A DNA stretch of 64,000 bases from Takakia lepidozioides (GCA_030704615.1 CM060732.1:81716001-81780000), one strand, 5' to 3'. Numbered from the stretch's first letter, positions 16,590-64,000 are shown. Made by a program: numbers and translations. The notes: generated by a model not told the origin, from the letters alone.

Positions 16590-17625
16590 TTACTCACAAT
16601 CAAAATCGTCGTCAATTTCCATGTCTTCGTGTTCCAGGGCCACTGCTGCGAGCGCCGCATCTATCTGCGTGCCTAAAGTCGAGTTCTTGTGGAGAGAAGC
16701 TATCATCTCATTGTAGAGGTCGGCATTGCCCTCAAAGGCAGATGTCTTCTTGCTGCCTTGCAGACATTGAATGAGCCCCTGCATGCAAAAACGATCAATA
16801 AGCAAAGAGAAAGGCGTATTTGCAATCCAAAAAGAATAGCAAATGAGGGCAGACCATTGAGAGAATGTCAGTGCAAAACCACAAACCTGTTCCAAGAGTG
16901 AGATCAACAACCTGGGACCCTTGAACGCTGCAGCTCTCCATGGCTCTTCGGACGCCCGCAGCACTGTAAGTGATGCATCCACGCAGTTGTAGATGAAATC
17001 ATCATCCACCGGATCGCAAGATGAGTCAACAAGCACCCCCCACCCCCCCCCCTTTCAGGACTTCGAACTCCTTCACAGAAGTGTGGATGGGTGGCATTCT
17101 CTTACAAGACAGTGTGCGTCGAAAGCACGAGTCTGCACAATTAAAACAGGGAAGACACTGGAGTGGGCACCGAAGCCAGGGCTGGGGAAAGACTAACGGG
17201 ACCACTTGCACCATGCTTGTGTCAACGCAAGATGGTACGGAAAAAAGACAAGAAAAAACGGAAAACAGACGAGTAAAAACCGTAGCGACATTTCTGGAGG
17301 GTTGAAAGCAAATGATGAAATGAGAATCTACCTTCTGGCTTGGGAAGTCCCCATTTGTGAGTGGCAAGCTCTTAACTCCATTCCAACTTTATCATCCTTC
17401 ATTCTACCCGCCTTGAGGAAATTGGCGAGCTGGCGCCGACACTTCGAATTGGCTTCTTGGAGGATGAGCAGACAGCCATTGTTAGCCAAGAAGTGCCCAC
17501 AGAATCTGAAGACCCAAGGCCAGCAGCGGTCATTCCATGCATTCCAGGCGGGAGTCACACCCAGCGGAGGAACATCGGGGAGTGGAAGCCCATCGGGAAT
17601 ATCCACAACTACGAGCTCGCCTGCT
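16590..17625 (-). pseudogene. Beta-class N6A/N4C DNA methyltransferase-like gene, copy 1 (spliced, degenerate)
   Basis: Exons about 17625-17331 (ELVVVDIPDGLP...PAWN...FRFCGHFLANNGCLLIL, motif IV-like then motif VI-like), 17133-16888 (DDDFIYNCVD...PWRAAAFKGPRLLISLLEQ), 16779-16590 (ends DDDFDCE*); clearly homologous to 38694-39159. Confidence 0.55.
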
Positions 17626-17732
17626 CTGAAAACAGTCCCCTTTCTTTAAATATTTTTTATTTAATTTTTATTTAAAATTTAAAATTAAATTTTATATATA
17701 TATTAAATATTTTATTAAAAAAACACTCTTGG

Positions 17733-17909
17733 TTAGGCTTGCGTTAATGGAAGCCTGAATCCTGCTTTGAAACTAGTCCCCTTTCCTACACTCTGTGCAC
17801 TTGTGCAAATCCAAGAAAGCCACAATGTGTGTACAGAAACGTCTATGATACCAGGGTACGTAGCCACATCAAAATATTGTAATTAGGCTTGCGTTAACGC
17901 AAGCCTGAA
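17733..17909. repeat. Two copies of the TTGCGT-YR-ACGCAA palindrome
   Basis: Perfect 22-bp aggcttgcgttaacgcaagcct at 17885-17906 and a decayed copy at 17733-17759. Confidence 0.85.
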
Positions 17910-23440: not shown

Positions 23441-23444
23441 CACC

Positions 23445-36802: not shown

Positions 36803-36805
36803 AAT

Positions 36806-36867: not shown

Positions 36868-36889
36868 CTTCTTTTCTTTTCTTTTCTTT

Positions 36890-38693: not shown

Positions 38694-39159
38694 TTACTCA
38701 CACTCAAAATCGGAGTCCACGTCGAGATCCTCGTCAGGCGCTTCGGGCTCCTCAAGAAGTCCCTCCGTGGATGGGGCAGAAGTAGTGCCCGACTCATGCT
38801 GATGAAGCTCGCTTGAGAAGAGCTCCGTATCAGCCTCCATGCCGAAGAAGTGCCTTCCGGCGCTTTTACATGCATGAAAAGTGCACCTGCAAATCGAAGA
38901 TGAACGAGAAATCAAAACAGGGCTTCCCTAAGCTCATTGCCCACATTTCAAACACAATGTTCAGGGCCCCACATGTTCCCATAGACAAGTCAACCACTCG
39001 TCCACCGTGACGGCTGCATGTCTCCACCAAAGTCTGCATGAAAGCTGGGGATTTCTCCCGTGCACCTCTCCAAGGGACACCAGTCGACCTTTTCGTAGTC
39101 CGACCCGAGTCCATGTAATTGAAGATTACATCATCCTCCACAGGCTCGCAGGTGGGGTC
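38694..39159 (-). pseudogene. Beta-class N6A/N4C DNA methyltransferase-like gene, copy 2 (C-terminal SAM-binding exons)
   Basis: EKSPAFMQTLVETCSRHGGRVVDLSMGT, intron, then HACKSAGRHFFGMEADTELF: matches the N6_N4_Mtase pattern KP..L...I...S..G..VLDPF.G.GTT..A....GR..IG.E.D; ends DSDFECE*; upstream part cut by a LINE. Confidence 0.72.
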
Positions 39160-42100
39160 AGAGAGAGAAGACTCCGGCCGAGGCCGGCATAACTAAGAGC
39201 CACTTCACCTTGCGGCTACTGCCCCCTTTCGGGGGTGGGCCCTATAACAAAAAAAGTGTCCAGGGGGACACCAGGTGACCACTAAGAATAGAGGGGGCGA
39301 GGGTATTCCTAGGTACCCAGGGGTATCCTGGGGGACCTAAGGTGCGTTTGAAGTGCCGGATTCCAGTTGGCGTTTGTTGGTGATAATAGTTGTGAGTGAA
39401 CGGAGTGTCGTGAGATGGATTTCTTTGAAACATTTGTGGATGGGAAGAATGGGAATTTGGAAGTTATCATGTATGTCCGTGATACTGGTGTTATGAATGC
39501 CACCTCGAGTGCCGGCTATGATGACAGTTAACGGGCCGGTTTTCCAGCCACGCCTTCGGAGTGCAAGGATAAGCGGGGCATATTTTTGACGTTTTTCTAA
39601 GATTGAATCGTTTGGATAACGATCATGGCAAAATGTGAATTCAATGAAATGGATGGTGAGTTGTGGGGATGGTAAGGTGGGGGGTAAAGTGTTGATAGGT
39701 AGACCTTGGACGAGGAGTATGTCCGGGCAAAGTCGAGCGGGGCACGAGCATGGTGATCGGGTACATATGCATGGTAGTAGCCATGGTGGTACTGTGTGGT
39801 CGGGTGGCCGTCCCTGGTAGGTGCCTGCATTCATGAGCAAGAACCAACGGGTTTCAGCACGTTTTAGAAAGAGCTTATGGAGGTGCCAGACTGCCTGGTT
39901 ATGACGCGTGATATGCAAGCCATGTATAACTGGGTGTGTACATTGGCTGAGGAGATGTGGCCAAGTGTCACGAGCTTGGTGGGTGGTTGCACATAACGAG
40001 CAGTATGGGGATGGGAACAGATGTGGCCAGAAGATGTGTTTGCGTTGGTGGCCCATGTATTGGGCATATCGGAATTTGCGTGTTTGTCGGATTTGTGCGT
40101 CGGTGGTGGCTTTGGTTAGCCAGAAATGATTGGAGAGTTTATGGTGCAGAACATTGGATTGAGTCCATTTTTGGATGTGTACTTTGGTATGGCTGATGGA
40201 GGTTGCCGCTTGTTTATTTGCTTCTCTGGTCAGAGTGGTCAGGAGGTTTCGGACTGGTCTGGGTACAGGGGGGTCCGGAACGGGGTGTATGAACCAGAAT
40301 GATGGGTGTGGGCGATGTGAATAGGGTCAATCGAGGGTTCAATTATGGGTTGGGAGGCGCCGAGTTGGGCGAGTAGGTCTGCTTCTTCATTACCATGGAT
40401 GCCAGTATGCAAATGGACTTTGAGTGTATGGACTGGGTGGCCTAGGGAGATGGCCCGCTCGACAATAGCGGCAATGAGGTTGCGGTCGGGGTGATGATGA
40501 TGGGCAGAGGGGTGGGAGATGTGGTTGCAAATGAGGAATAGTGAGGTAAGGCTGTCGGTGAAGATGTAGTGTGGGGGGGGGAAGGTGTCAAGTAGAGAGA
40601 GGGCGTCATAAATGGCCATGAGCTCAGCCCGGAGGATGGTGGCAAGGCCAGGGAGCCTGAAGGCAATGCCTTGACTGGTGCCGGCGTGGTAGATTCCATA
40701 CCCTGCATTAGGTTTGGTGAGGGATCCGTCAGTGTAATGTGAATTGGCCAGTGGGTATTTGGGGATGGTGTTTTGTTGATATATTGCAGGGATTGGGGGT
40801 AGAGGTGTTGTTGGCGTGACCTGGAAAGGGCGTTGCAATGTTCCAAGCTTTGTTGGTTTTGATCCGGGACCATGTGGTGGGTGTATGGGTGTGGGAGATA
40901 ATGTTTGGATAATGGATGGTGGCCTTTAGTTTATGAGTGATGGTGAGCAATTGTTCGAGCTGAGAAAAGAAAGATGGCGGTATGGCTGTATGCCGGGGGT
41001 TTTGGATGTGAAGAATCAGGGTTAGGGTGGGTTCCTTCCGTTTGAGATATTTGGGAAGAGGAGGGGTGTGAATATACTTAAGTTGGTTTGGGTCAATCGT
41101 GGCGAGTAGATTGACCCCTTCTGGGAGTTGTAGAAGAGGATGAGAGATATTAGGAGTGTTTTGTTGTGTGACGATGAGGATTGTGGATGCAGTAGGAGAG
41201 GAGTGTGCAACAAGTTTTGCCTATTGAAGAGCTTCGTGAGAAGGAGAACCAGGTGGAGGGTGGGCAAGGCCCCGGCCTTCCCATTGTGTGCTGGGTGGCA
41301 ATACCAGTGGCTCCAAAGATACAGTCTCTGTGGTGCGGGCTAGAGAATGTGGGCAATGCCATAAGGCATGTCAATGGGTTGGAGTAATATGAGTGAGTAA
41401 GCTGGAATGTGTTGATAAGTAAAGAGAGAATATCTTGGGGTATAGTATGGTGCGCACATGCTGTTTCCAATTGAGTGAGGGACTGCGGTTTCTTGGGGGG
41501 AGTGTCTTTGAGGTAGCGATCAACAATATAATTCGGTAGCAAAGTCTTGTTTCGGGGGTTGTAGCGATTGTGGGGATGAGGTAGTAGTAGAGTATTTCTC
41601 CCAGAGCCACGTTAGTCTTGTATTGGGGATGAGGCTAATGAAGCGGCCATGTTGAGCGTAAATGTTGGAAAGGCGGGGGCCCATGTGGATTAGAGGTTGA
41701 TCATGCTTGACATCTTTGTCAGGATTACATTCAGTTATGCAGATGTGCACGTTGGGGGTATAGAGTGGTTGGTGTATATATCTGTTATCTGTAGGTTGGG
41801 CGGGAGTGGTGTGTTGTTGGTGCATGTGTGTTAGATAGTTGGTGTTGGTTTGTTTATGGAAGGTGGTGAGGAGGGCAAGATTGTGTTCGGGGTCGCAATC
41901 GTCGTGTAGGCCGAAGAGGTCGTCTTCTATCTGCCATGTGTTGTCTGCGGAAGCGTACCCATTGACAGTGATAGTATGTATCAATGCAGGTGGCTCCAAA
42001 GGCATCAATGGATGTTTGGGTTTTAACTCCTAGTATAGCTTCAATGATGTAAGCATTGTTATTGTGGTCGTATTGTGGTGAAGATGGGGTGGATGGTGCG

Positions 42101-45100: not shown

Positions 45101-47560
45101 TATGAGTTGCATAAACTATTAATGTGTACATGACTGTTGAGGTATGAGGGGATGTCATTTTGTGTCTTGAAGTAGAAACCATCAAGAAGACTGAGGGATG
45201 AGTAGTTAAGTCCACCTTGTTTGGAGTAATGGTGATCGGCCGGTATATAACGGAGGTGGTGTGAGTAAGTGAATTTTGCCCATTCATGGTCAATGGTTGA
45301 TGGAGGTTTGTGAACACCATTGTATGTGTGGCCCATGAGGGCAATGTCCCTGTTGAAATCGCCTACTAGGATGTAGTGTTGGGATTGGTTGGAGGGTTGT
45401 GTGAGTGTGTTAGAGATGGTGAGTAGGATATCAGGGATCAGGGGGAGATCTTTGGCATGTGAGGGCATGTACAAGTGGGTAAGAATAATGGGAGGGATAG
45501 CGGGGAGGTGTAGCTTGATGATTTGAAGGTGTGATCGGAGGGAGAGAGCAACAGGTATTTTGACCGTGGTGCTAGGGGAGTGATGTGTACGAAGGATACC
45601 AAAAGCCACTCCGCCCCGAGTGGGATGATATGGCGCGGAGCGTCTAAGTAGGCATTGTGCGGCTGTGAAAGAACTGTCATATAGCAAATAGTAGACTGGA
45701 AGGAGATTGTTGATGTAGGAGCTGTTAGGGCCGTGTGTGTTGAGTTTAGTTTCTTGTAATAGAATGATATGCGGAGGTGTAGAGTCCATTAGATGGATAA
45801 AGCTTTGAATGCTGGTAGCAAGTGACCCTACATTCCAGGTGAGTATGTTGAGTGCGTGTGCTTGCTGGGAGGAGGGGGCATGTGGGGGACTGTTGGGTCT
45901 AGGGGGTGTTGGAGGTGGGTCATTGGTGTGGCTGGGCAAGCAAGGTGTAATGACTGGTGGCGGTATCATGGGAGGGAGTTGATATCCAGGGATGTCTGTC
46001 TTGGCATGGAGGGTTGCAGTGAGAATATTTTTGGAAATGAATGGGAATTTGTTGGTGAGAGTATCTAGCTCGTGTAAGGTAGCAGCTGGGTGTGCTAGGT
46101 GTTCGCCAAGAATCTTGTGAACTACTCTGGGTTTGGCTTGTAGTAGGTCAAGAGATACGTGGAGATTGTGTAGGTAGTGTGGGGGTGCTAGGTATCTGTG
46201 AGGTAGTGTGGGTAGCTCATGCAGTTGGTGTAGTAGCAAACGTATGTGTATGTCTGGTTGGGTTAAAGTAATCATTGCATATTGAGGGGATTGGAGAGAT
46301 GACAACGATTAGTGAGAGTAGTAGGTGTTGTGGGGGGTATGTGCTAAGTTTATGGGTGGCAGTGACTAGGGATGGGTGTTTGCCGGTAGGGAGCCCAAAG
46401 GTCGCAATTGAGTGCGTGGGTTTACGGTTATTGGTAGGATGGTTAGGGAGAAAGGGAGAGAAGTGGTCACTAAGGTGTTGATATGCAGGCACGAGCATGA
46501 CAGTGTCTGTTTGGAAGTATAATTCATATCTGTCTTTATGATCCTTTGGAAGCTTGTTGATGATGCTAGTGATGGTATAGGGGCTTGGGTTTGGGTGAAT
46601 GTTGCCGCAGCGAAGTAGTGTAAGTGTTTCATAGGCAAGTAGATAGGACTGAAAGTGGGATGGTGGATGGTGATAGGAGTGTTTGGATGCAAGGGATCTC
46701 TGGTGATATCATCCATGTGGGCAGTGGGTTATAAGTTGGATTTTGAGGGGGTGAGGGGTGGGGGTGCGTGGGGGTAGTTGTGGAGAAAGTGTATGAGGAG
46801 GGGTAGAGTTGGTGTTAGCAAAGTGGGTACTAGTGGAGCTAGTTGCTTGTGTATGTATGGGGGAAGGTATTGCCTGTGGGTTAGTGTGTGGGTTCGTCTG
46901 GGGATCATGTAGGAGGTTTGTTGTACATGAGCTCTCATAATGGGGATAAAAATTTAATATGGGTGTATGGTGGGTAGAGAGTATATAATTAACTAAAGTG
47001 GGGGAAAGAGGATAAGTGGACGACATCCATGGATGAATGAGTTTGGTGGGCCTTGATATAGATAGTGGGATAGAGGTATAGTGTGGAGTGGTGGCAGGGT
47101 TGGGTGATGGTAAGTGGATCTGGATTGTGGTAGATGCTTGGCAGCTGAGAGGGTGGGAAGGTTGAGGAGAAATGGCTGTCAGGAATAGGATGCTAGAGGG
47201 GGTGATGAAGAGACCGTGTGATTGATTTGATATCACAAGAATTGATGAGGTAGGGGGCTGAAAATGTGAGGGTGTAGATATGGCAGATATATGACACCTA
47301 AGGAGGCGTTTTGTTACGAGATGGAGAAGCTTGTTGGGGGTGCTTATTTGGAAAAAATATAGTACAAGATGAGTCTGAAGTTGTGGAGGATGAGAGATGG
47401 AGATTTGTGAGTGAAGCCAGTAAGGGTATAGCGTTGTGAGATGATGAGAGGCCAACACTTTGTTGTGGCATATTGAAAGAATAAATGTGAGCAGAGGGGG
47501 TGCTCAGGAATTACAACATAAGGTAGTGATAACAACAGCTTAATATCTAACAAGCCTATG
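39160..47560 (-). mobile_element. Dual-endonuclease non-LTR retrotransposon (Dualen/RandI-like), frameshifted
   Basis: APE (ILTWNV, LLQETK, VGDFN; about 45850-45075), RT (KAPGPD, NYRPIAL, QEGFR, QGDILSP, YADD), RNase H (YTDGS, RAEL, FTDS, GIHGNEEAD; 40735-40365), CCHC finger, and restriction-like endonuclease (RHN, CPDILL, FIEFT, KRQKY); (CT)n 3' end. Confidence 0.85.
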
Positions 47561-48781: not shown

Positions 48782-51700
48782 TCATCTCTTTGTCTGCAAG
48801 GTCTTCACTAGTTTGTCACTCCACACAGTAATGTAACCTACAGTGTCTCCCAACTCAGTGTGATGAGGCTTCATGGATTTGTTGTGATATGGTAGAGGGG
48901 CATTGGGAATGCGGACATCATCAATGTGGATGGCCACATAGCCTTCTGGCACAACAGGATACCCTTCACTCACCTCCATCCCTTGGAGACCAGCAATGCG
49001 GCCAGATCCGGCTGTTGATCGCGAAACAGTGTCTATGAGCTTGACATGGTCTCCCACCACGAACTGCCATCCCAGCCCAAACATGGCAGATTGCATGAGA
49101 ATTGTGGAACATGGATCGTGGAACGTATTGTGTCTACAAGGTCTACAAGGAGCTAATAACAATTTGTCTATCCAGGTCGGGAAGGGGAGAATAGCAGATG
49201 CATACACTTACCCCATTCTGCGAATCAGGGATCAGTGGTGTCGGCTTCCTCAAAGGGTGAAGGTGTGCTGCCCTTTGATTTGGGGGGCCTCGTTCGTGGC
49301 CAAGCACCTACAACCAACCAACAAGCACCAAAAATGTATATTATCTACACTGGGGACTCAAATTACACTAACACAATAAGATGCACCCAAACTGTCAATG
49401 CCTACAGTTGACACTGCGACAGTAATTTGACAAACTCTATCACAACATGTTTTACTGCCACAACTTAAGCACAAATGAGGCTGGCAATGGCACAAGGGAG
49501 TCACACAAAAATGCCTCTAATGTCTGGCACTGTGTACCACACTACAAAGTATGTTACCTGGCGAGGCTGAATGGCTCGAGGGCTGATAGCTTGTTGCCCA
49601 AATGTGGGTTGCCCTTTGAGATATTCTGGAATGCTCGGAGCCTTAGCTGCCCCCTCCAAGAAGGGCCATAAGCTGGTCAGAAGGAAATTATCATTGTGCG
49701 CCTCTACAGAACGACTTCTCCAAGGCAGTGGGAAAATGGCGCTGTATGCTGGATTTTTTGACCCCTTGTGCGGTGTGTCGTCAACAAGAAGAGTGGTTTC
49801 AGGATTCCAGACACAGTTGTCCCGCCACACTGTAGATAGGTTCTTCAGAAACCGTGGTTTCATGGGCAGGCTCCCATCCATGTCAGTGGACTGCTCACAA
49901 TATCCCCCATCCCACTTGAATGCAAGGTCACGGTGCCCATGGAAAAGCCAGTCCACTGTGGGTAGGAAGTTACGTGGTTGCATACAAGACCATGCTGCCA
50001 CTTCAAAGTGTTCGAAACACTTGTCCAAAAAAGCTTTGCAACCAGGCCTTACAACGACCATCTTGCTACCACATAATTTGTGCTCAAGGCCATTTGGAAC
50101 CACAAACGCATTACCGCTCCCGACATGGACGCACTCACACAGCAATCCATTAATATCTAGGATGAGCAAATGCTTGCCCTTCTCCACTATTGTGTGCACG
50201 ACATTCTCCGACATTAATTGAAGGTTGGGAGTGGAAGTGACAACCGTGGGTTGCTGGGTAATATCTGCCCGCGGGGAAACAAGGTCAATGTCCAGGGTTG
50301 TCTCAGATGCCCCCACCGCGACAGCAGCAGGCCGGAGTTCTGCATGCGCCTCCACTACCGCACAGTGTGACAGAACTGCACGAGGACGCGTAAGTTCCTT
50401 GGTAGGGGTGTCGTCCCCTCCACCTGGGCCAACATGCTCCACCTGCACATCATCCTCGAATGCATCAACGGGAGTGACGTTACCTGGTGACATGCCAGGC
50501 AAGTCAAACCTGTCCTCCAGACGTCTTGAGGCTGAAGGGCCAGCGATGCACGAGCTGTTTGCTATGGATGAGCCCACTAAGGCAGGTGAGGAAATGCTGA
50601 TCCCAAATTTCTCAGCCATGGCCTTCTGGTACATCATCACATGCGATATTGTAGCCTTCAAATCCATCATATCTTTGTGTTGTGCACCCTGTGCTCTTTC
50701 CATATCCTCCACTTTGCGAGCAATTGCTGAATACCCAGAGGTCCCCTCCTGCCAGGTCCACGCAAGTCCATGAACAACATGAGAACATCATGCCGTTGGT
50801 AGGGAAAATGCCTAGAACAAAATAATCGACAAAAAATGGGAGAAAGAATGATCACGTGGATCTCACCATCCGCTCGCTGGTCAATGTTCTGCTTACTGAA
50901 CCTTCCTGGATTTCATGCAACGATGGACTTCGGCCTCGCTCCTTTGCCTGCATTTGTCATGTACCAGCTCAGTATGCTAGCATGGTCAACCTGACGAGCG
51001 ACATACCATTCTGTGACAACAGTGATTGAACAGAGGTTTGTCAGACATACTGTTGGGATGCAACCAATATTGGTATCCCCGCGCCCACTAACCTAGTCAC
51101 TATGTCTGCAGTAATACAGAGAGCTGAGTGACAAATGCAGCTAATGCAGAAGAGTAATCACCAGCACAACACTACCCTATGTTAATGACCACAAAAAGTC
51201 ATGTTAACACTCACACTCACTCTCACTATTGCAGTTTCAAATACTGCCCTGACATCATCATTGCACGACAACTCTGATCAGACCCTCCTCTATCCACACT
51301 TACAGATTGGTATGTAAAATGAGGACCCCACCCACTTCACAACTTTGCCAGGTTCGGGTAATCCGGGTTTTCTAGTAATCCAATAATCCGGGTTTTCCAG
51401 ATATCCTCTAGAAAACCCTTCACACAAGCATCAATCTGTTGTGTGTGATTTGCCCAAAAACTAGGCCTCAGGAAGGCCTGGGCTTTTGGCTCAGCCTCTC
51501 AACTTTCAAAGTTGGTGAACAGGGGTACAGGCACAATTCCCTTGATTGAATTGAAGACAGCGTCTCTTTGGTGAGAGAACCCCGGACAGTGTATCAGAAA
51601 ATGAATACTGTCTTCAGATTGCCCACACAACGGACAATTGCACTCTCCTTTCCTCTCTGCTTCTGTTTGCTGTTCAAAGGTAGGCTTGCTTCCTGCCCTG

Positions 51701-54700
51701 AGTTTAAATTTCAGTCTAGTGCCGAGAGTGGGTAGACCCTTGAGGTCATCCAAGATGTCCACCCCCATGTCACTGACTAGAAAGAAGTTCAGGGAAGTTC
51801 TCTGCCTAACTTCATTTCATCAGACAATCTCATGGCAACAAACATGGCTTCAGACACTACAGCCTCTAAGGCAGATTTATCCAGCAGGGTCAAGACTTGC
51901 GGATCCAGGTCCAGGTCCTTGAGAATCTTTTCTACTCTCTTCTGCCAGGACTTAGCCTGTTTGACAGGGCGGTCCTGTTTCCAAGATATAGAGTCGATCA
52001 ACTTAGGATATCTGGTGTTGGGCATATGTTGCAGCTGACCCCACCATCTGACCTTGAATTCATCTCGTCGGGAGCTTAAGGATGGAATGCCAAACTCACC
52101 CCGAACAACCACATTGGCTGTTTTGGAGCATGCTGACATACACTCCTTAAGCACCCCCACTTGAATGGATTCTAGAGACTTAGCCTGGTTGGAGCTATCA
52201 ACCCATATAGCAGATCTGTACTCCAAGGCAGGTCCCCCCTTAAAGAAAAGCCTTCAAGCACCTTGCGACAAGGTGAATGAACACTTTAGTTCACTCCACA
52301 GGCAACACCCCTTCAAGAAAAACCTGATTGCCGGGGACATAATTTGGAGAATTCAATGACAAAGCCTGGTGGCACTTCGTACTTCCCTCCTAACATGGTG
52401 TAAAATGGGGGAAATGGACACCCCATTATACATTGTACTCATAAGACGTTGTTTGCCGTAGCCTTCTGGCCATTGACCCCCCGCCCAGTTTGAGCGGGAA
52501 CAAAAGGAACAGAACCTACCTCAGTCAGGGGTTGACGTTGGTAGTAAGACTTACCTTCATATAAAGATTTAATCCGGGTTTTCCAGATATCCTCTAGAAA
52601 ACCCTTCACACAAGCATCAATCTGCTGGGTGTGATTTGCCCCAAAACTAGGCCTCAGGAGGGCCGCGGCTTTTGGCTCAGCCTCGAGAGTTTCAAAGTTG
52701 GTAAACAGGGGTACAGGCACAATTCCCTTGATTGAATTGAAGACAACGTCTCTTTGGTGAGAGAACCCCGGACAGTGTATCAGAAAATGAATATTGTCTT
52801 CAGATTGCCCACACTACGGACAATTGCACTCTCCCTTTCCTCTCTGCTTCTGTTTGTTGTTCAAAGGTAGGCTTCCTGCCCTGAGTTTAAATTTCAGTCT
52901 ACTTCCAACTTGTGGGTAGACCCTTGAGGTCATCCAAGATGTCCACCCCCATGTCACTGACTGGAAACAACTTCAGGGAAGTTCTCTGCCTAACTTCATT
53001 TTCATCAGACAATCTGATGGCAACAGACATGCCTTCAGACACTACAGCCTCTAAGTCAGATTTATCCAGCTGGGTCAATACTTGCGGATCCAGGTCCAGG
53101 TCCTTGAGAATCTTTTCTACTCTCTTCTGCCCACATTATAAACAACAATCAGCCAAGGCAAAGAGGGCAAAAAGGCTGGTGTGTGAACTTACAAGCCGAG
53201 CCTCAACAGATGCCTTCCCACCACGTCCTGTTTTTGAAGGCTTCTTGATTGATGAATTTGCAACCTTCATGAGGGCACTTTTTGCGTTGAATCCTGCTGT
53301 CTGCCAATACGATACCAGCCTGTCCCAATGAGCTTCCTTCAGATGCGCAGGCCTCCCCTCGCCTGCCTTGTACATTGCATGGATCTCGTGTCTTTGGGTT
53401 TTCAAGGCAATGCCAAGTGTCTTCCTCATGTGCTCATAGTCAAGACCACGTGGCGTGTACGCAAATGTAGAGTTTAGAATCCTATATATTTCTTCAATGA
53501 CAGATTCATCCTGCGCTGCAATATGCATTGACATGTCACACAAACGCCACATCTGGCCTTTGAGGGCTGCATGCCAGGTATTGCGTGCTGGTCCAATGGG
53601 CTCTCCAGCTTTGTCAACCGGAAGCACTTGAGGGGGGAGTCCATCTTCGTCTCGCGCATCATGGTTTCGGATTGCCTCTGCCCTGGCACGCCTGTTCGCC
53701 CGCCTCAAAGCATTAGCTCGCTCCTTCTTGGTCATAGGGGTCTCTTCCTTTGCCACCTCAGGTGGTGGGGCAGCTGGGGGTTGCCATGGGGAATGGGGGG
53801 CGGGACAGTATCGCCCACCGTATGGCCCAAAAGGTTCGTATGGTGGACGTGTAGATGCCGGGTAAGCATGTGGGTCTAGGAGGTAAGGGGGAATAGGTGG
53901 AGGAGAATGGGCATATGGCTGCTGTGGGTAACCACCTGGAGGGGGCTTGTATTGGATGTGCGGGTTGTAAGGGCCCGCAGCGCCATACTGATCGGGGGTG
54001 GGGTAGGCATGTGGGTAATGTGTGTACGGAGGGTACTGTGGAATAGGTCGTGGAGGTGGTCGTTCTGCGCTTGGGGACTTGTTTGTAGCAGGGTTGACTT
54101 GTTTGAACAACCCCCGCCCCGATGGACTGCCCACCACAGCTGCAGCGCCTTCGATGGAAGCTCGCCTCTTCCTGGCCTGCACAGAATAAAAACCAATTCA
54201 AACATTAAAGTCAATCAAAGCATTCAAATGAAATCATGGCAACTTAGAACAAATTAACGCCGTGCACCTGCCATTTTAAAGCTTTGATTGTACTCATCCT
54301 CCTATGAGCAGGTCCTCATCCCCTCAGACTCATCAGGTGCCCCACACTTCTGTTTACCCATTCAGAAAAGTGGGGGCTGAGCCAAATCTACATGGCCAAT
54401 TCCAAAGCCTACCTAGTGGGGAGACCTCAAAAACCATTGGCATGCTTGTATCAAAGCGTGCATACAAGTACTTGCATCAGTGGGTAGATGGACTCATTTG
54501 AATGGACATTGCATTTTAGTTGTAAACAGAAACATCACTATGTATCAACCTCTTAGTAAGAGCCTTTGACTTTAACCCAAACTATGTACACGATGAAGAT
54601 ATAGCAAAAGGGGTTGATTTCCTATCCCATTGTGGGGTTTCACTGCCTATATGCTCGGGCATCCCTTCCTTCCTACATCCCAATTTTTCTAGCAATGCCA

Positions 54701-55260
54701 TCTCCCCAATGTGAAATTCCCAAAGTGAGAACTTTCCAAATGTGATTGCATTCAAAGTTGTGCCACGTCCACTGCCAGATTTTCTGTGGCTTCCACCTTT
54801 CAACCTCTTCTGTGTGGGAAGTGCATTTACATCCTGGAATGCTAAGAAAGTCTCAGACACGTTCTGTACATTTGCATGCTTCCTTCATGGGTATGCTGAG
54901 CATGTGAATGCATAGAAATGCTGAAGATGTGGCGTCATAGTGAGGAGGTGCTTACAGATGGTGATTTTGCCGGCGACGGGCGTTTCTGGGGAAGCGAGGG
55001 TGCAGGAGCTGGGTGGCGAAGAATATCTTCGCTAGAATCGCCAGTGTGCTCGCCCGCAGGGACACACAACAAATCCTCCTCCTCGTCTTCGTCTACATAC
55101 TGTCGTGCCTCGTCGGCCATTGTTTCTAGCCTTCCACTGCGTCTGGGTGGTCCCGTGGGTAGTGGAGGTCGACGGCAAGCACGCTTTGGTTTCGGAGCAA
55201 GAAGCCTGCAATCCTCGCCCCATGAAGAAATTAACCAATCCCGCTCTCTTCATGGTGCGC
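48782..55260 (-). CDS. CACTA TnpA-like spliced gene with embedded NIF/FCP1-type HAD domain
   Basis: Exons: P/Y-rich plus Transposase_24-like (RPAHLKEAHWDRLVSYW...SKTGRGG, 54177-53195); NIF (KHLLILDINGLL, RPGCKAFL, KNLSTVW, TLLVDDTPHK, about 50175-49600); TNP1-like (VPEGYVAIHIDDV...LPY...LGDTVGYITVW, 49090-48782). Exon joins are inferred. Confidence 0.7.
51340..53135 (-). mobile_element. Two tandem truncated copies of a LINE 3' region in a TnpA intron
   Basis: RT C-terminal region (VVRGEFGIPSLSSRRD) and zinc finger CPLCGQSEDSIHFLIHC; 51370-51940 repeated at 52570-53130. Confidence 0.8.
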
Positions 55261-55779
55261 CATGATAGTGTGGAGACAGGCGTCGCCTCACAACCATCAT
55301 TCTGTGTACTTAGCAATGCAATCCCAACACTGGGAATGTAGAAAAACTCGTAAACCCAAAAGACAAGGATGCGGGCAATTTCAGGCTAAACCGTAGACCT
55401 CTCACATTTAAAAAAAAAAACCCTAATGACAAGCCCCTGCAATGCGATGTCTGACAACCCCAAACTAAAGTATTCGGGTCAGTTGAGCACTCCGGTTGAG
55501 GTGGAATGCTCTCCTGCGAGATTTAGGCCACAACACTAGGGTGAGCCGCCTCTCAGTATACTCACAGTGGGTGCGAACCAAACAACTCCGCCTCAACCTC
55601 TTTGTTGCGAGCAATGCAGGTCTCCCTTAGCTTCTCATACGCAGTCAGAGGACCGCACGGGGAGGGCCTGACCATGGCAGTCTGACATCAGCTGCAAAGA
55701 CCCTTGCACACCCCCTGTGTAAGTACAATGTATACAACGAGAGCGGGGTTTCGGCTAACAGCTCAACGACTCCGTGTGC

Positions 55780-58700
55780 GCAGGAAAGATGAGAAACTGT
55801 GGCGACTAGAGGAGGCGCATGCCATTGCACAAGGGCACCGCAAAATATTGTGCAACTGCAAAATATGCCATGGAGGGATCTCGCAGTTTCTACCGATGGC
55901 CAAAAAACACCTAACAAAGTATGGGAGGGACCCAAACCTTCGACAGTGTACAGTCCCGGTACGCCTTGCACGACGCACGCACTCTGACATGCTCGCAGCA
56001 CGCCCGCGCATGTCCGCATTTTGGACAGTCGTGGGAGTGACTGGAGTCCGAACTACGTGTCGTTCTTCCGTTGGATGTATTGGAGTCATGGAGTCGTAGT
56101 GATGGAGTCATGTAGTCGGTAGTGCGTCAGAGTAGTCATGTCCATGACTTCATGACCGTGGATCATGGACATTTCAACTACGTGGTGTTCTTCCATTGGT
56201 TGTACTGGAGTCATGTAGTCAGGGTCATGACTACATGGTCGTTGTTGACTGCCATGTGTGAAGGCAATATGCATTTTGGGCTTTTGGCAGTTTGTTGCCA
56301 TGTGTCATGCCTTCAACGCACTGCCCACTTGGGCATATTTGTTGAGAGCTTTCACTTTGTTGGTCTGTGCAGATAGCTGTCTGTATGTGGGGATGTCTCC
56401 CTCTATCACAAGGGTATGTTTGTTTTGTTTTTCGATGAAAACTGTGTTCCTACTTTGCCGTATTATATGAGAGTAGTTTTCATTTGTGTTTGTGTCTGAG
56501 CTCCACAAGCTGCTTCGAAATGAAGTCTGTGGCCGACCAATTTCGTCTCCTGATTCGCAAGTGCGGGGGAGACTTGTAGCATTCACCTGTATTGAACTAG
56601 TGCAATTCTACAAAGTGTTTGCTTACATGACAGTGTTTAAATGAAATTTCATAATCTGGGAGTTTTGAAAAAAGCCTGTTCATCGTATCCCAATTTATGA
56701 TTTCATTTGCGTTCACAGGGCTACATTACATCCGACTCTGAAGTGGAGGCTGAATGTAGCCTAGAGAGTGTTGCAAACGACGTCAATTTGGATGGACAAG
56801 ACGGCAATGGGCTACGGGGCCAGATTGCCCGTGCTGTGCAAGATGCATTTGAAATATCAGATACCCTCCGGGAGAATCCCACACCTGCCCCAAATGCCCT
56901 TCACTTGGACAATGATGAGGCTGTTGAGAATGGCGCAAATCCCTCTGAAATGCCTGATGGGGAAAATATGGGCGGAGAAGAAGCAGGCGCGCCAAATGAT
57001 CTTCACCATGGAAAACTCATGCGAGAGTCCCAAATCCCCTTATACGATGGGAGCGTTCACAACCGATTGACTGCCACATTGATGTTGCTCAATTCTTGCG
57101 CCACTCACAGATGTACCAACGCATTTGTGGATGAGTTATTTTCATTGTTGAGGCTGGAGATTTTGCCCAAACAAAACACCTTGCCGAAATCGCAGTATGA
57201 GGCAAAAATATGATCGCCATGATGGGTCTAGGATACAAACAGATCCATGCCTGTGAGCGTGGATGTGTATTGTTTCGTGGAGACCTCAAAAAGGCTGCTA
57301 ATTGCCCCAAGTGCCATAGTCGTCGATACATGGACGGCCGTGGGAAGGTGCCCAAGAAGGTGTTGCGATACTTTCCTCTCATACCTAGATTGAAACGGAT
57401 GTTTCGAGTTAAGACGCTGGCAGAGCTCATGAAGTGGCACAACAATCATAGAAGTGCAGATGGCATGGTCCGGCATGCTGCAGACAGTAAGGCTTGGTGC
57501 CATATTGACAACACATGGCCGGATTTTGCTTCAGATCCAAGAAATCTGCGTCTTGGATTGGCACTGGATGGGGTCAATCCTTATGGCACCAAATCCACTT
57601 CTTGGTCCACCTGGCCCATCATGATGCTCAATTATAATCTACCTCCATGGTTGGTAACGAAGAAATTTTTTGTCATGTTAACACTCCTCATTCCTGGAAA
57701 GGAATCTATGACAAGTGAAAATGTGGATGTTTACCTGCAACCACTAGTGGAGGAGCTAACGACATTGTGGGTGGGAGTTGCAGCCGTGGATGTGGCAGCC
57801 ATTGAAGGAGAGCGGGCTTTTAACATGCGTGCAGTCCTCATGTGGTCCATACATGACTTCCCCGCCTATGGCTTGTTATCAGGTCAGGTTCACCAAGGGT
57901 ACTGTGCTTGTCCAGCATGTGGACCTCAAGTCGATTCCAGATATTCCCCAGCTTGTAAGAAATTGATATTCCAGGGGCATCGACGCTATCTTCCCCACAA
58001 TCATGCCTATAGAAGATCCAGACTTTTTAATGGGGCGCGAGACATGAGACCTGCTCCACATACAGTGACAGCCACCGAAATCAAGGAGCGTGCACGACAT
58101 TACAAACAATGGATTGATGATGGTGGGACTGTAGGCGCACAAAACGATCCTTCCAAGCTCCATGGCGTAAAACGATTGTCCATTCTGTTTGACTTGCGTT
58201 ACTGGGAGGTGCGATTACCACACATGTGTTTGGGAACAAAACAGTGCATTGGTTTTTCATTGTGCATGATTGTTTGTTTACTGAACCTGTGCTGTAAACA
58301 TCATTCATGACTGCATTGCAATGTGCCTAATTTGTTAGACCACATGGTGCAGCATCTTATCATCCGCCACACTTTTGATACCATGCATTGCGAGAAGAAC
58401 GTGACGGAGAACATAATCAAGACTATTTTCGGCGAGAAGGACACGATGCAAGTTCGCCGCGATATGGAATTGCAGGGCATTCAAAAGCCTCTTTGGTTAC
58501 GACGCCATCCCACCAGAGTGGATACATTAGTAATGCCTGATGCGCCATATGTGCTCACAAAACCAGAGCAGCGGGTGTTCCTGGAGATTATCACGAATCT
58601 GAAAGTACCCACTGGCTATGCCTCTGCTTTCAAAAAACATGTGGTCAAACAAAAGTTGAGCCAATTGAAGTCACATGATTATCACGTGCTAATGCAACAG

Positions 58701-59100
58701 ATCCTCCCACTTGCTCTACGTGGGTTGATGGCGCCTGGGGTTCGCAATGCCATACTAAGAGTGTCCCGTGTGTTTCGCAAGCTTTGTGCAAAATTCATTG
58801 ATCCCACCGAGCATGAGGAATTGAAGAAGGAGGTGGCAGTGACTCTTTGTCTTCTGGAGAAAGAGTTCCCACCCTCATTTTTTGATGTTATGACACATTT
58901 ACTTATCCACTTGGTGGATGAGGTGGATTTGTGTGGACCTGTAGCTTCTCGGTGGATGTACCCGGTGGAGAGAGCAATGAAGGATTTTAAAGGGTATGTG
59001 CGAAACTTGGCGAAGCCTGAGGGCAGTATGGCGGAGGGCTACGTGTTTGACGAGGCATTGGGATTTTGTACAGTGTACTTGTCTTCTGTTGATGCTACTA
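55780..59100 (+). pseudogene. CACTA TnpD-type transposase 2, truncated before DUF4216
   Basis: CNCKICHGG exon, IHACERGC, DPRNLRLGLALDGVNP, YNLPPW, DTMHCEKNV, LKSHDYH, RWMYPVER; frameshift near 57210; intron 58209-58352. Confidence 0.92.
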
Positions 59101-61052
59101 GGCGGAAAATCGGAAGCGGAGGGAAATGAAGTTTGAGGCAGGCACAGAGGTCTGGTTGAAAATCAAGAATTTCCGACTACCTCCGGAAGTGAGGCCGAAG
59201 TTCGTACCTCCGTATGCGGGACCCTTTCGCATTCAGAAGGTTATGAATGAGGATGTGTATGAATTGGAGCTGCCGGCAAACAGCAAGGTGCACCCAGTAT
59301 TCCATGTCTCCCTTTTGAAGCCTTACTTCAAAGATGAAGCGCGTCCGAATCGGCATCAAGTGTTGCGTCCGCCACCTATGCTGTTGGATCATGAAAATGA
59401 ACCTGAGTACGAGGTGGAGGCAATACTTAAGTCGAGGAGGTTCAGGAACCGAGAAACGGAGTATCTCGTCAAATGGAAGGGCTATCATCATGTGGAGGCA
59501 TCTTGGGTGCGTGCCTCAGAAATGGGAAACGCACCCGAGGCGGTTGCAGCTTTCGAAGGGCGGCCTCAAAAGCGGAAGAAGCATTGATGGGGACATCAAC
59601 CTTGGAGCGTGGGGGAGGAAATGCATGCTTAGCCCGGCTTAGCTAGCTTAGGAAGCCGATTGCAAAAAAACTTGTATTGTACAAAACGTGCTATAAATGA
59701 AATGGCTTCCAAATGTTGTGCGTCCTATTTTGTTTGGAATGGTGATGCATGGTATGGTTGGCTAGTGTGTAGAATGCATGCTAGCTTATAAAAGTGGGAG
59801 AGGTAAATTGGGTTAATTGTGTGTTTGCGTAGTGCCGAAATCGGGTGACCCCCATCCAAGAGGCAAAGAAACTTGCGCCTTCTTTGGGAGTTCACGTGCT
59901 AGTGCGCACCTGGCGCGTGCGCGTACTATAACTGCGCTACCGAGGGGGTTGCCTTGTAGTGCAGGCTAACGCGGAAGCTACATGCTTCCGTTCACGTACT
60001 ATAATCGTGTAGCCTCGGGACGAAGTCGTAGTGCGGCTTCGGCGTGTTCCCGTACCTCAGGCCAGCATTCCAAGGCGGACCCAATTGTAGTGATTGGGGC
60101 GCACGGTTGGTTCAAGGTTATCTTCCTAGTCAAAGAGGGTTCCAGGTGAACCCTTGCTCAAGGTGATGTCAAAAGCGGCATCATGAGCGGTCGCAAGCAA
60201 TGTTGTTGCAGTAAGGCGATTCGATCCTCGGGGAGGATCATTCCTTGGCCTTGAAGTAGGCCAAGAAGAGTGCATTGGGAGGAGCTGGAGAGGCTCCACC
60301 CTTGGCCGGGACTTGGAGGAAGTCGGCCGAACTAGCTAGTGGAGAGTAGAGTCAAGTGTGGGGTTTGGTTCTTTGCCATGGGACGCCATGGTACGGAAAC
60401 AAACTCCTTGATGTGGGACGCCACAACTTGGATGTTCGTTTCTACAAAATGGACAAGTCGATGAGGACATCGACTCCCTGTTGGTAGGGGTGTGTGTCGC
60501 GGCCCTTTGCCTTGAGGGCAGGGGGTCGGGACACATGAGGGGCTGCCCCTGTGGTGGGGGCAGCGGCAGCAATAGGTATGAGGGGGCTGAAGCGCCCTTG
60601 AGTGCCCAAGGCACTCAGGGAAGCGGAGGCGCTCACTAGGTGGAGCCTTGCACCTGACCGGGAGTCGAGGGTTTTCGTGGTGGTTCGCCATAAAATGGCA
60701 TGGCTGGTTGTGAAACCCCCGCGGACAGCTACATAAGTATATATAGGGAGTAGTAACCCTGAGAACGGTGCAAGCCCGTTGGTGACCAAAAACTAGTGAG
60801 TAAGCGAGCGAGCCGGAAAGCGATCAAAGAGTGGGGAGCTGTTCCGGACTGCCAACTACCAAAGGGAATTCCCGCTGGTTCCAAATCGGTGGAGGGTTCT
60901 TTGGGAGAACAAAGGGGGACCGTTATGCCCCGGTGAGCAGCTGAAGCTCCAAGTTGGCCCGGCGGCCAGGTTCGGAGTCAGGCGCGCGCATCAAAGCGAG
61001 TAACTATGACTTGAGGGGGAGCTTACCGAATTGAGGTGCGCGACACATAACA
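59101..61052 (+). mobile_element. Gypsy chromovirus 3' end: integrase C-terminus, chromodomain, PPT and 3' LTR
   Basis: YAGPFRI...VHPVFHVSLLKPY, EYEVEAILKSR...YLVKWKGY...SW; polypurine tract gggggaggaa at 59611-59620; LTR TG(59622)...ATAACA(61052). Confidence 0.88.
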
Positions 61053-61102: not shown

Positions 61103-64000
61103 CTGAGTGAGGAACGAAACAAGCATGTCCCATGATTTCGAGGGCACCCCTTTGAATGTGGACTTCCTGGATTCCATCATTGCCAGAAAACTTTCATTCA
61201 CTACCTTACGATGGAACTGGCCCAAAACCCTGGATGGATGTTCTCTCGCATCGAAAGGCTGCTCCCTCGACTTTGCTGTACTCCTATCCCTCCTAGTTGG
61301 AGAAGGCTGTCTTTCAGTGACCTTTGACAGGCTCTGTTCCTGCGGAGCTGCACTCTTCCCCTTCCCCTTCGGATCCTCGACAATCTTCCCCTTCCGTTTT
61401 GGAGTAGCAGATTTCTCAGGCTCTTTTGCAGCCAGAGCAGCACTGATTCTGTCCTGAATGTCTTTGTCAGCTAGTGGGGCAAGTGCCGCGGCGTTGTCGT
61501 TAAGGTTTCTCAAAACAACTTCATCGAATGGTGTGTCCTGTTTTGGCAGATTGAGGTACCACCCACAATCTCTGAAGTGCGCCCTGCTCCAGTCTCTAGC
61601 AATACCAGCCGTGTACATTGTCTTGTCATTGGAGGGGTCAGCCCATGAGTAGATGAAGTTTGGGTCATCGCTAAGGTACTTTACCGGTATGAGGACATGA
61701 TACATGTACCTGAATGACACACTTACCCAAAATCCAGACAGTCAATCGATCTGATCAGGACATAGATCACAGATCACGAAAATGGTATTGGCATGCAGGT
61801 CAGTAACACTGATAAACTAACGTTTGAAAGCCCGAATCAACCTTGCGTTGACGCAATGTTGATTCGAGCTGAAATGGAAAACACCAAATTTGGAGAACTG
61901 CACTTTCAACAAGCACCTACGAGAGGGAAAGCCCATTATCCTAAAACATCTCATGCACAACATGGAACCCCAATCAACCTTGCGTTGACGCAAAGAAGAT
62001 TGGCAGATACACCTATGATAATGTAGCATTGAAAGAGACAGTGATTGACAACGGAATTCAACATTGCGTCAACACAAGGTTGTTTTCATTAACACATGAA
62101 ATGGAAAACAGTGCTTGAAAACAACCATCCGAAGATCTGCTGGTATGGATATTCAACCTTGCGTTGACGCAAGGTTGAATTCCTCTGCTGAAACACCTGT
62201 CCATGGTATTTGATAACCTTAACTTTCCTACAATTGTATGGAAATCGGGGTATTTCTGCGGGACATTTCTAGCAATCCATACCGTCAAACAACGTTGCGT
62301 CAACGCAAGGCTGTTTGTTGGTACAGTGTAAGCTCTAAACAACATTTCAAACAGACTCCAAACAGACTTTCAGTTCATCCTGGCAGCATTGGAACTGGAA
62401 ACCACCAAAAAAACAGTCCAAGAACACAGGAAAACCTACATAGCCTAGCCCTTCATCAACCTTGTGTTGACGCAAGGTTGATTTGCCGCCCTTTCACATG
62501 CAGAAAAATGACATCATTGGATACCCCAGGTACATGAAAGTGAAACCAAAACAACGGGATACAAGCTTGCGTTAACGCAATGTTGCTCGGCTGCACGTCC
62601 AGAGCCTTCAGAGCTCCCTCAAAACCTCCAAATTCGCAGTTCTACATGGAAAAAACGACACAAGAATACAAAAACATACACTTCAAGTACCAGATTTGTT
62701 TCTTGGAGGTCACACCTGTACAACACTCGTTTCATTGCTTGCTCGCTATTGTACTGGTTTTTGAATTCATAGGACCTGGAGATTCCTTTGTCTCTCTCGA
62801 ACTCCCTGAAGAAACAGTTGTTCCAGACAGCGAGCTTCCATCTCCTGATATAGGCCTCCAGTGTGATCCGGGGGCAAGCCATCTGGATTTTGTAGTCTGC
62901 CATTGACTCCCCAAGTGCAGCCACCGCTCGTTTTTCCAAACTGCAGCAAGAAAGATCATAAGAATCGTGGAGAGAGCACGGAACAGCACAAGCATTTAAA
63001 AATGGTTTTGTGGAAACCTTACCTAGCTCCAGAAGGTTGCTTTGTGTAGCCACTGGTCGAATGTGTGGTCGCTAACAACTTTTATTGCTTGTGTCTTCGA
63101 GTCCCTCTCAGGAGATGGGAACATGTTGGTGTCTCTCACAAGTGGATCGGAATTCCAGATCTCCAACCACCTGATTTTGGTTGCATTGTCCACCATTGAA
63201 ATGGAAAGGCGATGCAGTTTCTCTTGGGTCATCTCTGGCTTGGAGCCATACTTGTCATAATGTGCTTTCACCTGTTCCAGAAATTCCGTGCCAAGACTTG
63301 GATCTACTATGCGGATTTGTTTGTCGAACGCACTCATGAGGTTCTTCCTTTGATTGTTCATCTCGAATTCCATAATGTCCTCAAGCCCAGTTGCCTCTGC
63401 TCTTCTGTGTGGGAAGCATAGTACTCTGCTTTCGCCTTCAAACCAGTTTCTGCTATTTCTTGCTACATACATTACAGGGAGAAAGAATCAAACACTGCCG
63501 TTTCTTGATAAAATTTGCAGTAACAACAATCAAAAAGATGTCAAGAAGCTTACCGTGTACATGTAATCAAGAAAAGCCTCCCTTGTCAGGCTGTACCATG
63601 TGCTTGTCTTCTTTTCAGCACACCTATTCATTTGTTGAGGACTGAGCACGTTCGTGAATGACTCCAGTGGCATCAGCCTTATCTTCTGGATACGGAATAG
63701 AGTGTGGCAAAGATTTGTCGTCACATGGGAGGTTTCATTGGACCTGGAAAAACCTTCAACTCATAAGATGATTTCTAATTGTGCAAACGCAAATCGGAAC
63801 GGGAACAATGTTGGTAACTTACTTGTTTATGTCGTGCATGGCTGTCAAGATCTGCGTGACATGTCCTTTGTGGTCGAGTACCATGGAAACAACGCTCCAG
63901 TGCTATTTGATCTCGTCCGAGTGCAAGCTTGAAATGTTATCCATCCAGGCAAACAGTCTATGGTTCCTATCCCAGACAAAAAACATCTTTCCCATAAACT
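61103..64000 (-). pseudogene. Spliced gene with ParB/Srx-like motif; runs off the window
   Basis: GT-AG exons about 64000-63822 (MFFVWDRNHRLFAW...LTAMHDIN), 63743-63554, 63462-63023, 62945-62680, 61709-61103; DRNHR is one transition from DGNHR; internal stops and a frameshift. Confidence 0.55.
61833..62585. repeat. Intronic array of seven spaced palindromes, consensus CAACCTTGCGT-YR-ACGCAAGGTTG
   Basis: Centres at about 61850, 61987, 62071, 62166, 62302, 62469, 62574 with largely unrelated sequence between them. Confidence 0.92.

What the first reader, a model, noticed from the sequence alone, without database searches (positions are those of the whole stretch)
61833..62585. Spaced palindrome array with compensating arms inside the ParB-like gene (parS-like?)
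Seen: seven 24-34 bp inverted repeats with core TTGCGT-(TG/CA/TA)-ACGCAA, centres 84-167 bp apart, in one intron of about 970 bp. The outer arms differ among copies yet stay self-complementary (cgaatc/gattcg, ccaatc/gattgg, attc/gaat, caaac/gtttg), which plain tandem duplication does not explain. The centre is always GTYRAC. Established: ParB proteins load on clustered palindromic parS sites, and GTYRAC is the HincII restriction-modification site. Inference: cis-acting binding, methylation or cruciform sites for the element's own protein.
Basis: partly seen in the sequence, partly recalled or inferred. Interest (0 to 1): 0.85.

Follow-up and report, generated by a model that had tools for sequence, protein, structure and literature searches.

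The report
Helically phased palindromes in transposon gene
Seven short palindromes lie in a predicted intron of a broken, multi-copy plant gene, spaced by whole turns of the DNA helix, so they are likely lined-up docking sites for the predicted ParB-like protein that this gene encodes, which would let a likely jumping gene mark or protect its own DNA.

Summary
The seven palindromes are real (10 matches in the window against 0.07 expected). The spacers' AA/TT steps share this period. In other copies 6 of 8 large length changes or new spacers keep the phase. The host gene is a multi-copy, broken, spliced plant gene. Its ParB label rests on motifs only: every profile and fold test was inconclusive. 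No methyltransferase lies in this truncated copy, but three more sites sit in a methyltransferase-like remnant at 16.6-17.9 kb. 'Compensating arms' are only weakly supported. Best reading: a phased binding platform for the element's own protein (0.65); binding is untested and no genome-wide test could be run. ParB-like transposon genes with inverted-repeat arrays are in print for algae. This scan noted phased arrays of this kind before in other plant genomes and the same kind of palindromes in this genome (unreviewed notes). New variant of a known kind.

The parts
61838..61861 (.). Site 1 (24-bp near-palindrome, consensus CAACC-TTGCGT-YR-ACGCAA-N-GTTG); longest arms
61975..61998 (.). Site 2; 137 bp (13.05 turns) from site 1; right inner arm degenerate; missing in a variant of other copies (net -126 bp = 12.0 turns)
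62059..62082 (.). Site 3; 84 bp (8.0 turns); one CpG-type change not shared by most other copies
62154..62177 (.). Site 4; 95 bp (9.05 turns); 14-bp perfect arms
62290..62313 (.). Site 5; 136 bp (12.95 turns)
62457..62480 (.). Site 6; 167 bp (15.9 turns; 158 bp = 15.05 turns in a variant); one CpG-type change not shared by most other copies
62562..62585 (.). Site 7; 105 bp (10.0 turns; 116 bp = 11.05 turns in a variant)
61710..62715 (-). Predicted GT-AG intron (1006 bp) that holds the array; its spacers carry AA/TT steps with 10.48-bp period, about 4 bp off the site centres
   Evidence: homologue P0025 is continuous across it; an RNA-guessed contig ends at 61711
63823..64000 (-). Exon A (runs off the window): ParB-like motif region, DRNHR here and DGNHR in an 88% identical relative; in-frame stop at 63903-63905
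63554..63743 (-). Exon B (predicted); continuous with exon A in homologue P0034
63023..63462 (-). Exon C (predicted); frameshift near 63393 and stop at its end
62716..62940 (-). Exon D (predicted); 21 homologues among cluster representatives, none named
61103..61709 (-). Exon E (predicted), last exon left; the gene is cut off by the LTR-like repeat
59102..61045 (+). 3' end of a chromodomain Gypsy element and its very high-copy LTR-like repeat; borders the truncated gene, not part of the array
16590..17625 (-). Broken spliced amino-methyltransferase-like gene remnant (assigned through its homology to the remnant at 38.7-39.2 kb); a site at 17217 lies in one of its predicted introns
17217..17902 (.). 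Three related sites (cores 17217, 17739 with 2 mismatches, 17889); spacings 522 and 150 bp, not whole turns
38700..39160 (-). Second methyltransferase remnant (C-terminal half only), no site nearby

Best explanation
The seven palindromes are spaced by whole helical turns inside a predicted intron of a broken multi-copy plant gene, and they are likely binding sites for dimers of the predicted ParB-like protein that this likely transposon gene encodes. Shown: the sites, their 10.5-bp phasing, matching AA/TT periodicity in the spacers, phase kept in most length variants seen, conserved cores against variable spacers, many copies, and the same motif 5' of the gene in a close relative and in a methyltransferase-like remnant. 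Inferred: a dimer reads the two TTGCGT half-sites and outer CAAC arms in duplex DNA; whole-turn spacing puts all dimers on one face of the helix so they can touch each other or all face outward on bent or nucleosome-wrapped DNA; intact copies carry a C-terminal amino-methyltransferase, so the bound protein would methylate or otherwise shield its own element (self-marking or anti-silencing) and probably tune its own gene. This copy is dead.
For: Phasing: p 1e-4 (positions) and 2.5e-5 (spacings) at a preset 10.5 bp; 10.48 bp is the best period from 5 to 30 bp (p 0.024 with that scan, 0.002 for 10-11 bp). Six different spacer lengths, so one duplicated unit cannot explain it. Other copies (two samples; spacings worked out by me from the tables): -9 (158 bp), +11 (116 bp), -126 (95 bp, drops site 2), two 42-bp spacings; relative P0035 shows two translated sites 28 codons = 84 bp apart upstream of the coding part. 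These six lie within 0.5 bp of whole turns; chance per event 0.14. Spacer AA/TT steps: best period 10.48 bp, p 0.0025 against dinucleotide shuffles with 18 bp around each centre left out; only the window over the array itself reaches this score among 167 windows. Core CpGs intact in 12 of 14 half-sites while window CpG o/e is 0.5. 9 of 9 GTYRAC-centred sites with at most 1 mismatch lie in the ParB-like gene or in or just upstream of the methyltransferase-like remnant, about 7.5% of the window (regions drawn after seeing the sites, and clustered sites are not independent). Precedent: inverted-repeat arrays next to ParB-like PAG3 in red-algal transposons, ParB-like plus methyltransferase gene in an Ectocarpus transposon, VANC binding to intronic motifs of its own transposon.
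Against: No binding data. ParB fold not confirmed: no hit in Pfam, PHROGs, NCBIfam or PDB sequences, none against profiles built here from 49 bacterial ParB domains or 20 ParB-methyltransferase fusions. The link between the ParB-like half and the methyltransferase half is not shown in this window, and the 16.6-kb remnant scored nothing directly against the methyltransferase profile. Two variants seem off phase: +35 bp at 62552 and +5 bp in a piece over 61836-61949 (both at about single-copy depth, neither shown to span both sites). The three sites at 17.2-17.9 kb are not phased to their neighbours (522 and 150 bp). 3 of 3 distant homologues lack the intron and motif at this junction. Spacers 1, 3 and 5 are weakly related, so part of the AA/TT coherence is inherited by duplication. 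Element ends and its transposase were not found, so 'transposon' rests on copy number and neighbourhood.
Confidence: 0.65

Rival explanations
1. The array is read by host chromatin proteins: the AA/TT-periodic spacers position nucleosomes and a host transcription factor binds the outward-facing palindromes, acting as an intronic enhancer of the element's gene.
For: AA/TT periodicity about half a turn from the site centres is what wrapped DNA shows. TTGCGT resembles a NAC-family half-site (recalled, not tested).
Against: A 24-bp family-specific palindrome is longer than typical plant factor sites, and palindromic NAC sites have a longer spacer (recalled). The period 10.48 fits free B-DNA better than the slightly shorter nucleosomal period (recalled). 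In this window the motif occurs only in the two gene remnants.
Confidence: 0.13
2. The sites are bound by another protein of the element (transposase or TnpA-like helper), like CACTA subterminal repeats, and help to build the transposition complex.
For: CACTA-type transposase frames (55.6-59.1 kb, 25-28.4 kb) and a TnpA-like frame (53.1-54.2 kb; label from my recall of the family) lie in the window; phasing suits any cooperative protein-DNA complex.
Against: The sites are inside the accessory gene's introns and just upstream of it, not at mapped element ends, and none lies near either CACTA transposase remnant.
Confidence: 0.1
3. The palindromes act as structures (DNA cruciforms or RNA hairpins in the intron).
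For: Outer arms pair within copies somewhat more than between copies (p 0.011 for positions 12-15); single-site DNA hairpins of -4.4 to -14.0 kcal/mol (no shuffle control).
Against: Not significant over positions 12-22 (p 0.087); position 7 unpaired in 5 of 7; inner arms are conserved in sequence rather than covarying; RNA hairpins would not need 10.5-bp phasing.
Confidence: 0.06
4. Neutral residue: one palindrome multiplied by local duplication, or a small unrelated repeat inserted many times.
For: Spacers 1, 3 and 5 share weak similarity; depth peaks at the sites show the motif in many contexts.
Against: Six different whole-turn spacings, in-phase indels in high-depth variants, retained core CpGs.
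Confidence: 0.06

Closest known systems
PAG3 of red-algal Plavaka (EnSpm/CACTA) transposons (Petroll et al., bioRxiv 10.1101/2025.02.11.637652; section 8 and passages read; supplements closed)
   Same: Transposon accessory gene with a weakly detected ParB-like N-terminal domain (their best HHpred E-value was 0.29) and nearby arrays of inverted repeats, proposed to bind and modify its own element.
   Different: Red algae; 2OG-oxygenase partner domain, methylase in a separate gene (PAG2); arrays described as tandem and adjacent. Here: land plant, sites inside an intron with unrelated spacers of six lengths; the passages I read do not mention helical phasing. Sequence homology to PAG3 not tested.
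Sola1-1_Ec32 accessory gene of Ectocarpus (PMC12477816; passages and supplement rows seen)
   Same: ParB-like domain plus N4C/N6A-type methyltransferase in a giant DNA transposon, suggested to mark its own sequence.
   Different: Brown alga; no palindrome array mentioned in what I saw; here the fusion is inferred, since this copy is cut before any methyltransferase part.
VANDAL/VANC anti-silencing system of Arabidopsis (PMC5735166; abstract and passages seen)
   Same: Element-encoded protein binds a short motif accumulated in introns and other non-coding parts of its own transposon.
   Different: VANC motifs are 8-9 bp, non-palindromic, in tandem repeats, and cause loss of methylation; no homology to VANC was tested or seen.
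Bacterial ParB/parS and phage ParB-N6_N4_Mtase fusions (PMC12704722; passages seen)
   Same: Palindromic sites near or in the gene of the binder (recalled for parS); a GxxR-like motif (GNHR) in the intact relative; ParB-methyltransferase fusions are common in prophages.
   Different: No ParA, no detectable HTH or profile match, spliced eukaryotic gene, about 45 extra residues before the GxxR-like motif; no partition role is claimed.

Membership tests
ParB-like transposon accessory genes with inverted-repeat arrays (PAG3 / Sola1-1_Ec32 type) | Array of inverted repeats in or next to the gene | tested here: met
ParB-like transposon accessory genes with inverted-repeat arrays (PAG3 / Sola1-1_Ec32 type) | N-terminal ParB-like domain | tested here: inconclusive
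   GNHR motif in P0032; no significant profile match; models pLDDT 33 and 41; Atlas nearest family DUF3723 at 0.95-0.96 with recognition below threshold
ParB-like transposon accessory genes with inverted-repeat arrays (PAG3 / Sola1-1_Ec32 type) | DNA-modifying domain fused or adjacent | tested here: inconclusive
   Absent from this truncated copy; separate remnants: 38.7-39.2 kb scores 17.1 bits against a methyltransferase profile (0 of 200 shuffles), 16.6-17.6 kb matches that remnant (E 1e-17) but not the profile
ParB-like transposon accessory genes with inverted-repeat arrays (PAG3 / Sola1-1_Ec32 type) | Carried by a DNA transposon (TIRs, TSD, transposase) | tested here: inconclusive
   Many diverged copies; CACTA remnants nearby but separated by a Gypsy remnant; ends not in the window
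ParABS partition system | ParB_N (PF02195) match, HTH, ParA partner | tested here: not met
   No Pfam or NCBIfam match; no match to own ParB profiles; no ParA among the frames scanned
ParABS partition system | CTP-dependent loading on the palindrome | not testable with these tools
   needs biochemistry
VANDAL/VANC | VANC homology and Mutator-type host element | not tested
   functional analogy only
CACTA subterminal repeats | Repeats within the terminal regions of a CACTA element | tested here: not met
   Sites lie in a predicted internal intron; none near the CACTA transposase remnants
HincII-type restriction-modification site | Methylation of GTYRAC by a cognate enzyme | not testable with these tools
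   centre fits in 7 of 7, no modification data
Unrelated MITE or dispersed repeat | Motif spread independently of the gene | tested here: inconclusive
   Not so within 64 kb; no genome held, genome index unanswered; 24-mer absent from metagenome and viral contigs

The most novel reading that the evidence does not exclude
A land-plant DNA transposon family has rebuilt a bacterial-style ParB/parS module as a private epigenetic system: a ParB-fold methyltransferase loads cooperatively on helically phased palindromes displayed on bent DNA in its own introns and promoter, and writes a prokaryote-type methyl mark (6mA or 4mC) along the element to keep it out of host silencing, with site sequence and phase under selection in each subfamily.
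Probability: 0.3. Interest if true: 0.85.

Novelty: new variant of a known kind. Interest (0 to 1): 0.62.

Why it matters
Papers on red and brown algae propose that ParB-like transposon proteins bind and modify their own elements, but in the passages I read this is untested. A defined 24-bp site, a spacing rule (whole helical turns) and natural in-phase indel variants make the idea directly testable: binding, cooperativity, half-turn insertions, and modification calling at known positions. If true, plants would hold a second kind of transposon self-targeting besides VANC, built from bacterial parts, and a possible sequence-specific tool for writing a non-native methyl mark.

Tried and rejected
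No whole genome held; the genome index did not answer, so no genome-wide motif test and no full-length copy. Word-based protein searches for long homologues found none (weak evidence). 24-mer scans of metagenome and viral contigs: 0. 16-mer scan of viral contigs: 40 stretches, single or few sites, 1 of 40 with a ParB gene within 3 kb, taken as unrelated. Protein-based locus scans: viral none; prokaryote genomes one hit, a membrane-protein frame, rejected as chance; phage tblastn none. AlphaFold models from 4 sequences were unusable and Foldseek gave nothing. The only ParB-profile score on P0034 fell on residues 17-32, outside the conserved core, and was rejected; on the core the score did not beat shuffles. 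Atlas search with exon C: best 0.85, uninformative. No RNA holder listed; X6 and X7 are RNA only by guess. Dropped before counting spacings: 14 of 15 joint rows with unknown letters between, one ambiguous 5c row (X3 61864-62465), and changes of 1-2 bp (136-139, 85, 96, 168, 115); the tool showed only 12 of 39 indel rows and 32 of 1623 pieces. The idea that TG/CA/TA centres are just decay of a central CpG was considered: it is unlikely, since 0 of 10 centres are CG while 16 of 20 flanking core CpGs survive. In one search one exon of the 16.6-kb remnant was read in the wrong frame; redone. Paper searches (listings, plus the passages cited) found no description of phased palindromes in land-plant ParB-like transposon genes; subscription journals and preprint supplements are not covered.

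Full report
Observation. The seven near-palindromes are at the stated place, with cores at 61843, 61980, 62064, 62159, 62295, 62462 and 62567. The core pattern with at most one mismatch occurs 10 times in the window against 0.07 expected: seven here, two at 17217 and 17889, and one weak non-GTYRAC match at 53451; a two-mismatch relative lies at 17739. Turned to a common orientation the site reads CAACC-TTGCGT-YR-ACGCAA-N-GTTG. The centre is TG or CA in six copies and TA in one, and position 7 pairs in only 2 of 7 copies, so the site looks like a duplex recognition sequence more than a hairpin. The 'compensating' outer arms are a small effect: 19 of 28 pairs at positions 12-15 against 14.1 for permuted arms (56 of 5040), but 36 of 77 against 29.9 over positions 12-22 (438 of 5040).

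The spacings 137, 84, 95, 136, 167 and 105 bp are 13.05, 8.0, 9.05, 12.95, 15.9 and 10.0 turns of 10.5 bp. Against random spacings of 80-170 bp this gives p 2.5e-5 (spacings) and 1e-4 (positions) at a preset 10.5 bp; if the period is left free from 5 to 30 bp the best value is 10.48 and p is 0.024. I found this before looking up earlier notes on phasing. The spacers carry the same period: AA/TT steps more than 18 bp from any centre peak at 10.48 bp, about 4 bp off the centres (p 0.0025 against dinucleotide shuffles, 0.03 against independent spacer phases; tracts of four or more are too few to be significant), and among 167 windows of 760 bp only the one over the array reaches this score. Spacers 1, 3 and 5 are weakly related, so part of that coherence may be inherited.

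Other copies. Contigs of public runs cover the gene at summed depths of 4,000-43,000 in a run whose single contigs show about 50-60; the tool warns that this is no copy number, but it points to many diverged copies. Laid on the array alone (X1-X3 are one sample, X5 another), the window's two core mismatches read as the intact base in more than 94% of the depth, while spacers differ at many places. From the displayed rows I worked out eight large length changes or new spacers. Six are within 0.5 bp of whole turns: -9 (158 bp), +11 (116 bp), -126 (site 2 lost, 95 bp), two 42-bp spacings, and 84 bp between two translated sites upstream of the coding part in relative P0035. Two seem off phase (+35 at 62552; +5 over 61836-61949), both at about single-copy depth and neither shown to span both sites. 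Chance per event is 0.14; one search gave 5e-5 for 6 of 7, and 6 of 8 is about 2e-4 by hand. Only 12 of 39 indel rows and 32 of 1623 pieces were displayed, so this is a sample.

The host gene. It runs on the minus strand from beyond 64000 to about 61100 in five predicted exons. Homologues support the splicing: P0034 is continuous over exons A-B, and P0025 over D-E, which defines the 1006-bp intron at 61710-62715; an RNA-guessed contig ends at 61711 and another is 83 letters shorter across the 82-bp C/D intron. The copy is dead (stop in exon A, frameshift near 63393, stop at the end of exon C) and is cut off by a chromodomain Gypsy remnant with a very high-copy repeat. An 88% identical relative has WDGNHR, like the GxxR P-motif of the ParB fold described in PMC12704722 (passages), and the order of motifs fits ParB by eye with a long insertion. 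No statistical test confirmed this: Pfam, PHROGs, NCBIfam and PDB sequences gave nothing, nor did profiles from 49 bacterial ParB domains or 20 ParB-methyltransferase fusions; folds failed. The Atlas puts P0034 nearest to fungal DUF3723 clusters (0.95-0.96, recognition just below its threshold), a family carried by Starship elements (10.1101/2021.12.13.472469, passages). Three distant homologues on short contigs lack this intron and show no site, so the intronic array is lineage-specific.

Methyltransferase link. This copy holds none. Two other remnants in the window do look like amino-methyltransferases: 38.7-39.2 kb scores 17.1 bits against a profile built from 37 bacterial enzymes (0 of 200 shuffles; picked after a scan of 1630 frames), and 16.6-17.6 kb matches it (E 1e-17) though not the profile itself. 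The three extra sites lie in or just upstream of the latter. All GTYRAC-centred sites of the window therefore fall in the ParB-like gene or at a methyltransferase-like remnant, which suggests, but does not show, one two-domain gene family. The trio is not phased neighbour to neighbour (522 and 150 bp).

Mechanism. Most likely (0.65) a dimer of the element's own protein reads each palindrome, and whole-turn spacing on AA/TT-phased, probably bent DNA lines the dimers up on one face for cooperative loading; a fused methyltransferase would then mark the element. Shown are the anatomy, phasing, conservation and association; the binder, its fold, the fusion and the purpose are inferred. Rivals: host factor plus nucleosome positioning (0.13), sites for a transposase or helper (0.10), cruciform or RNA hairpins (0.06), neutral duplication (0.06). 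The HincII likeness cannot be tested here.

Comparison and novelty. Petroll et al. (section 8 read) report inverted-repeat arrays next to the ParB-like PAG3 gene of red-algal transposons and propose self-binding; an Ectocarpus transposon carries a ParB-like plus methyltransferase gene (PMC12477816, passages and supplement rows); VANC binds motifs in introns of its own transposon (PMC5735166, passages). So the concept is in print. My paper searches found no land-plant case and no mention of helical phasing; preprint supplements were closed and may bear on this. Earlier unreviewed notes of this scan describe phased palindromes in ParB-methyltransferase transposons of other plant genomes and palindromes at a ParB-like gene in this genome; they are leads, not support. 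It works like a PAG3/VANC-type self-targeting system; membership is probable but not established. Verdict: new variant of a known kind, interest 0.62.

Noticed in passing
window 36803-37960: Poly-G / 25-bp perfect inverted repeat / poly-C at 36810-36865, a 61-bp tandem array (36920-37260) and a frame matching SSB_1 (37378-37698, minus, E 4.6e-5, below the curated cut-off): perhaps the end of a small mobile element.
   Followed up: no
window 39337-47503: Long minus-strand non-LTR-like retroelement with endonuclease, RT and RNase H-like frames (labels by eye) and extreme GC skew (up to 0.62); it borders the second methyltransferase remnant.
   Followed up: no
window 49501-59129: CACTA-like cluster: NIF phosphatase (49501-50787, minus), TnpA-like frame (53136-54197, minus) and transposase frames (about 55.6-59.1 kb, plus), with a 560-bp duplication (51384-51946 / 52570-53131); whether it belongs to the same element as the ParB-like gene is open.
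   Followed up: partly
window 59102-61045: Gypsy 3' end with SH3 and chromodomain followed by about 1.4 kb of very high-copy repeat; earlier notes describe permuted LTRs in this genome, not checked here.
   Followed up: no
window 19700-25200: Rearranged tandem fragments of PPR-like genes (375-bp and 84-bp units) next to a second CACTA transposase remnant at 25-28.4 kb.
   Followed up: no
L007 and L026 3002-3045; L017 3002-3055: Unrelated phage contigs carry two copies of a similar palindrome 28-39 bp apart, in L007/L026 around a promoter-like stretch before a start codon, probably operators of a phage repressor.
   Followed up: partly
window 63960-63980 and P0033, P0034: The DRNHR form of the motif occurs in this copy and in two independent homologues, DGNHR in P0032; the variant may be tolerated or recurrent.
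   Followed up: no
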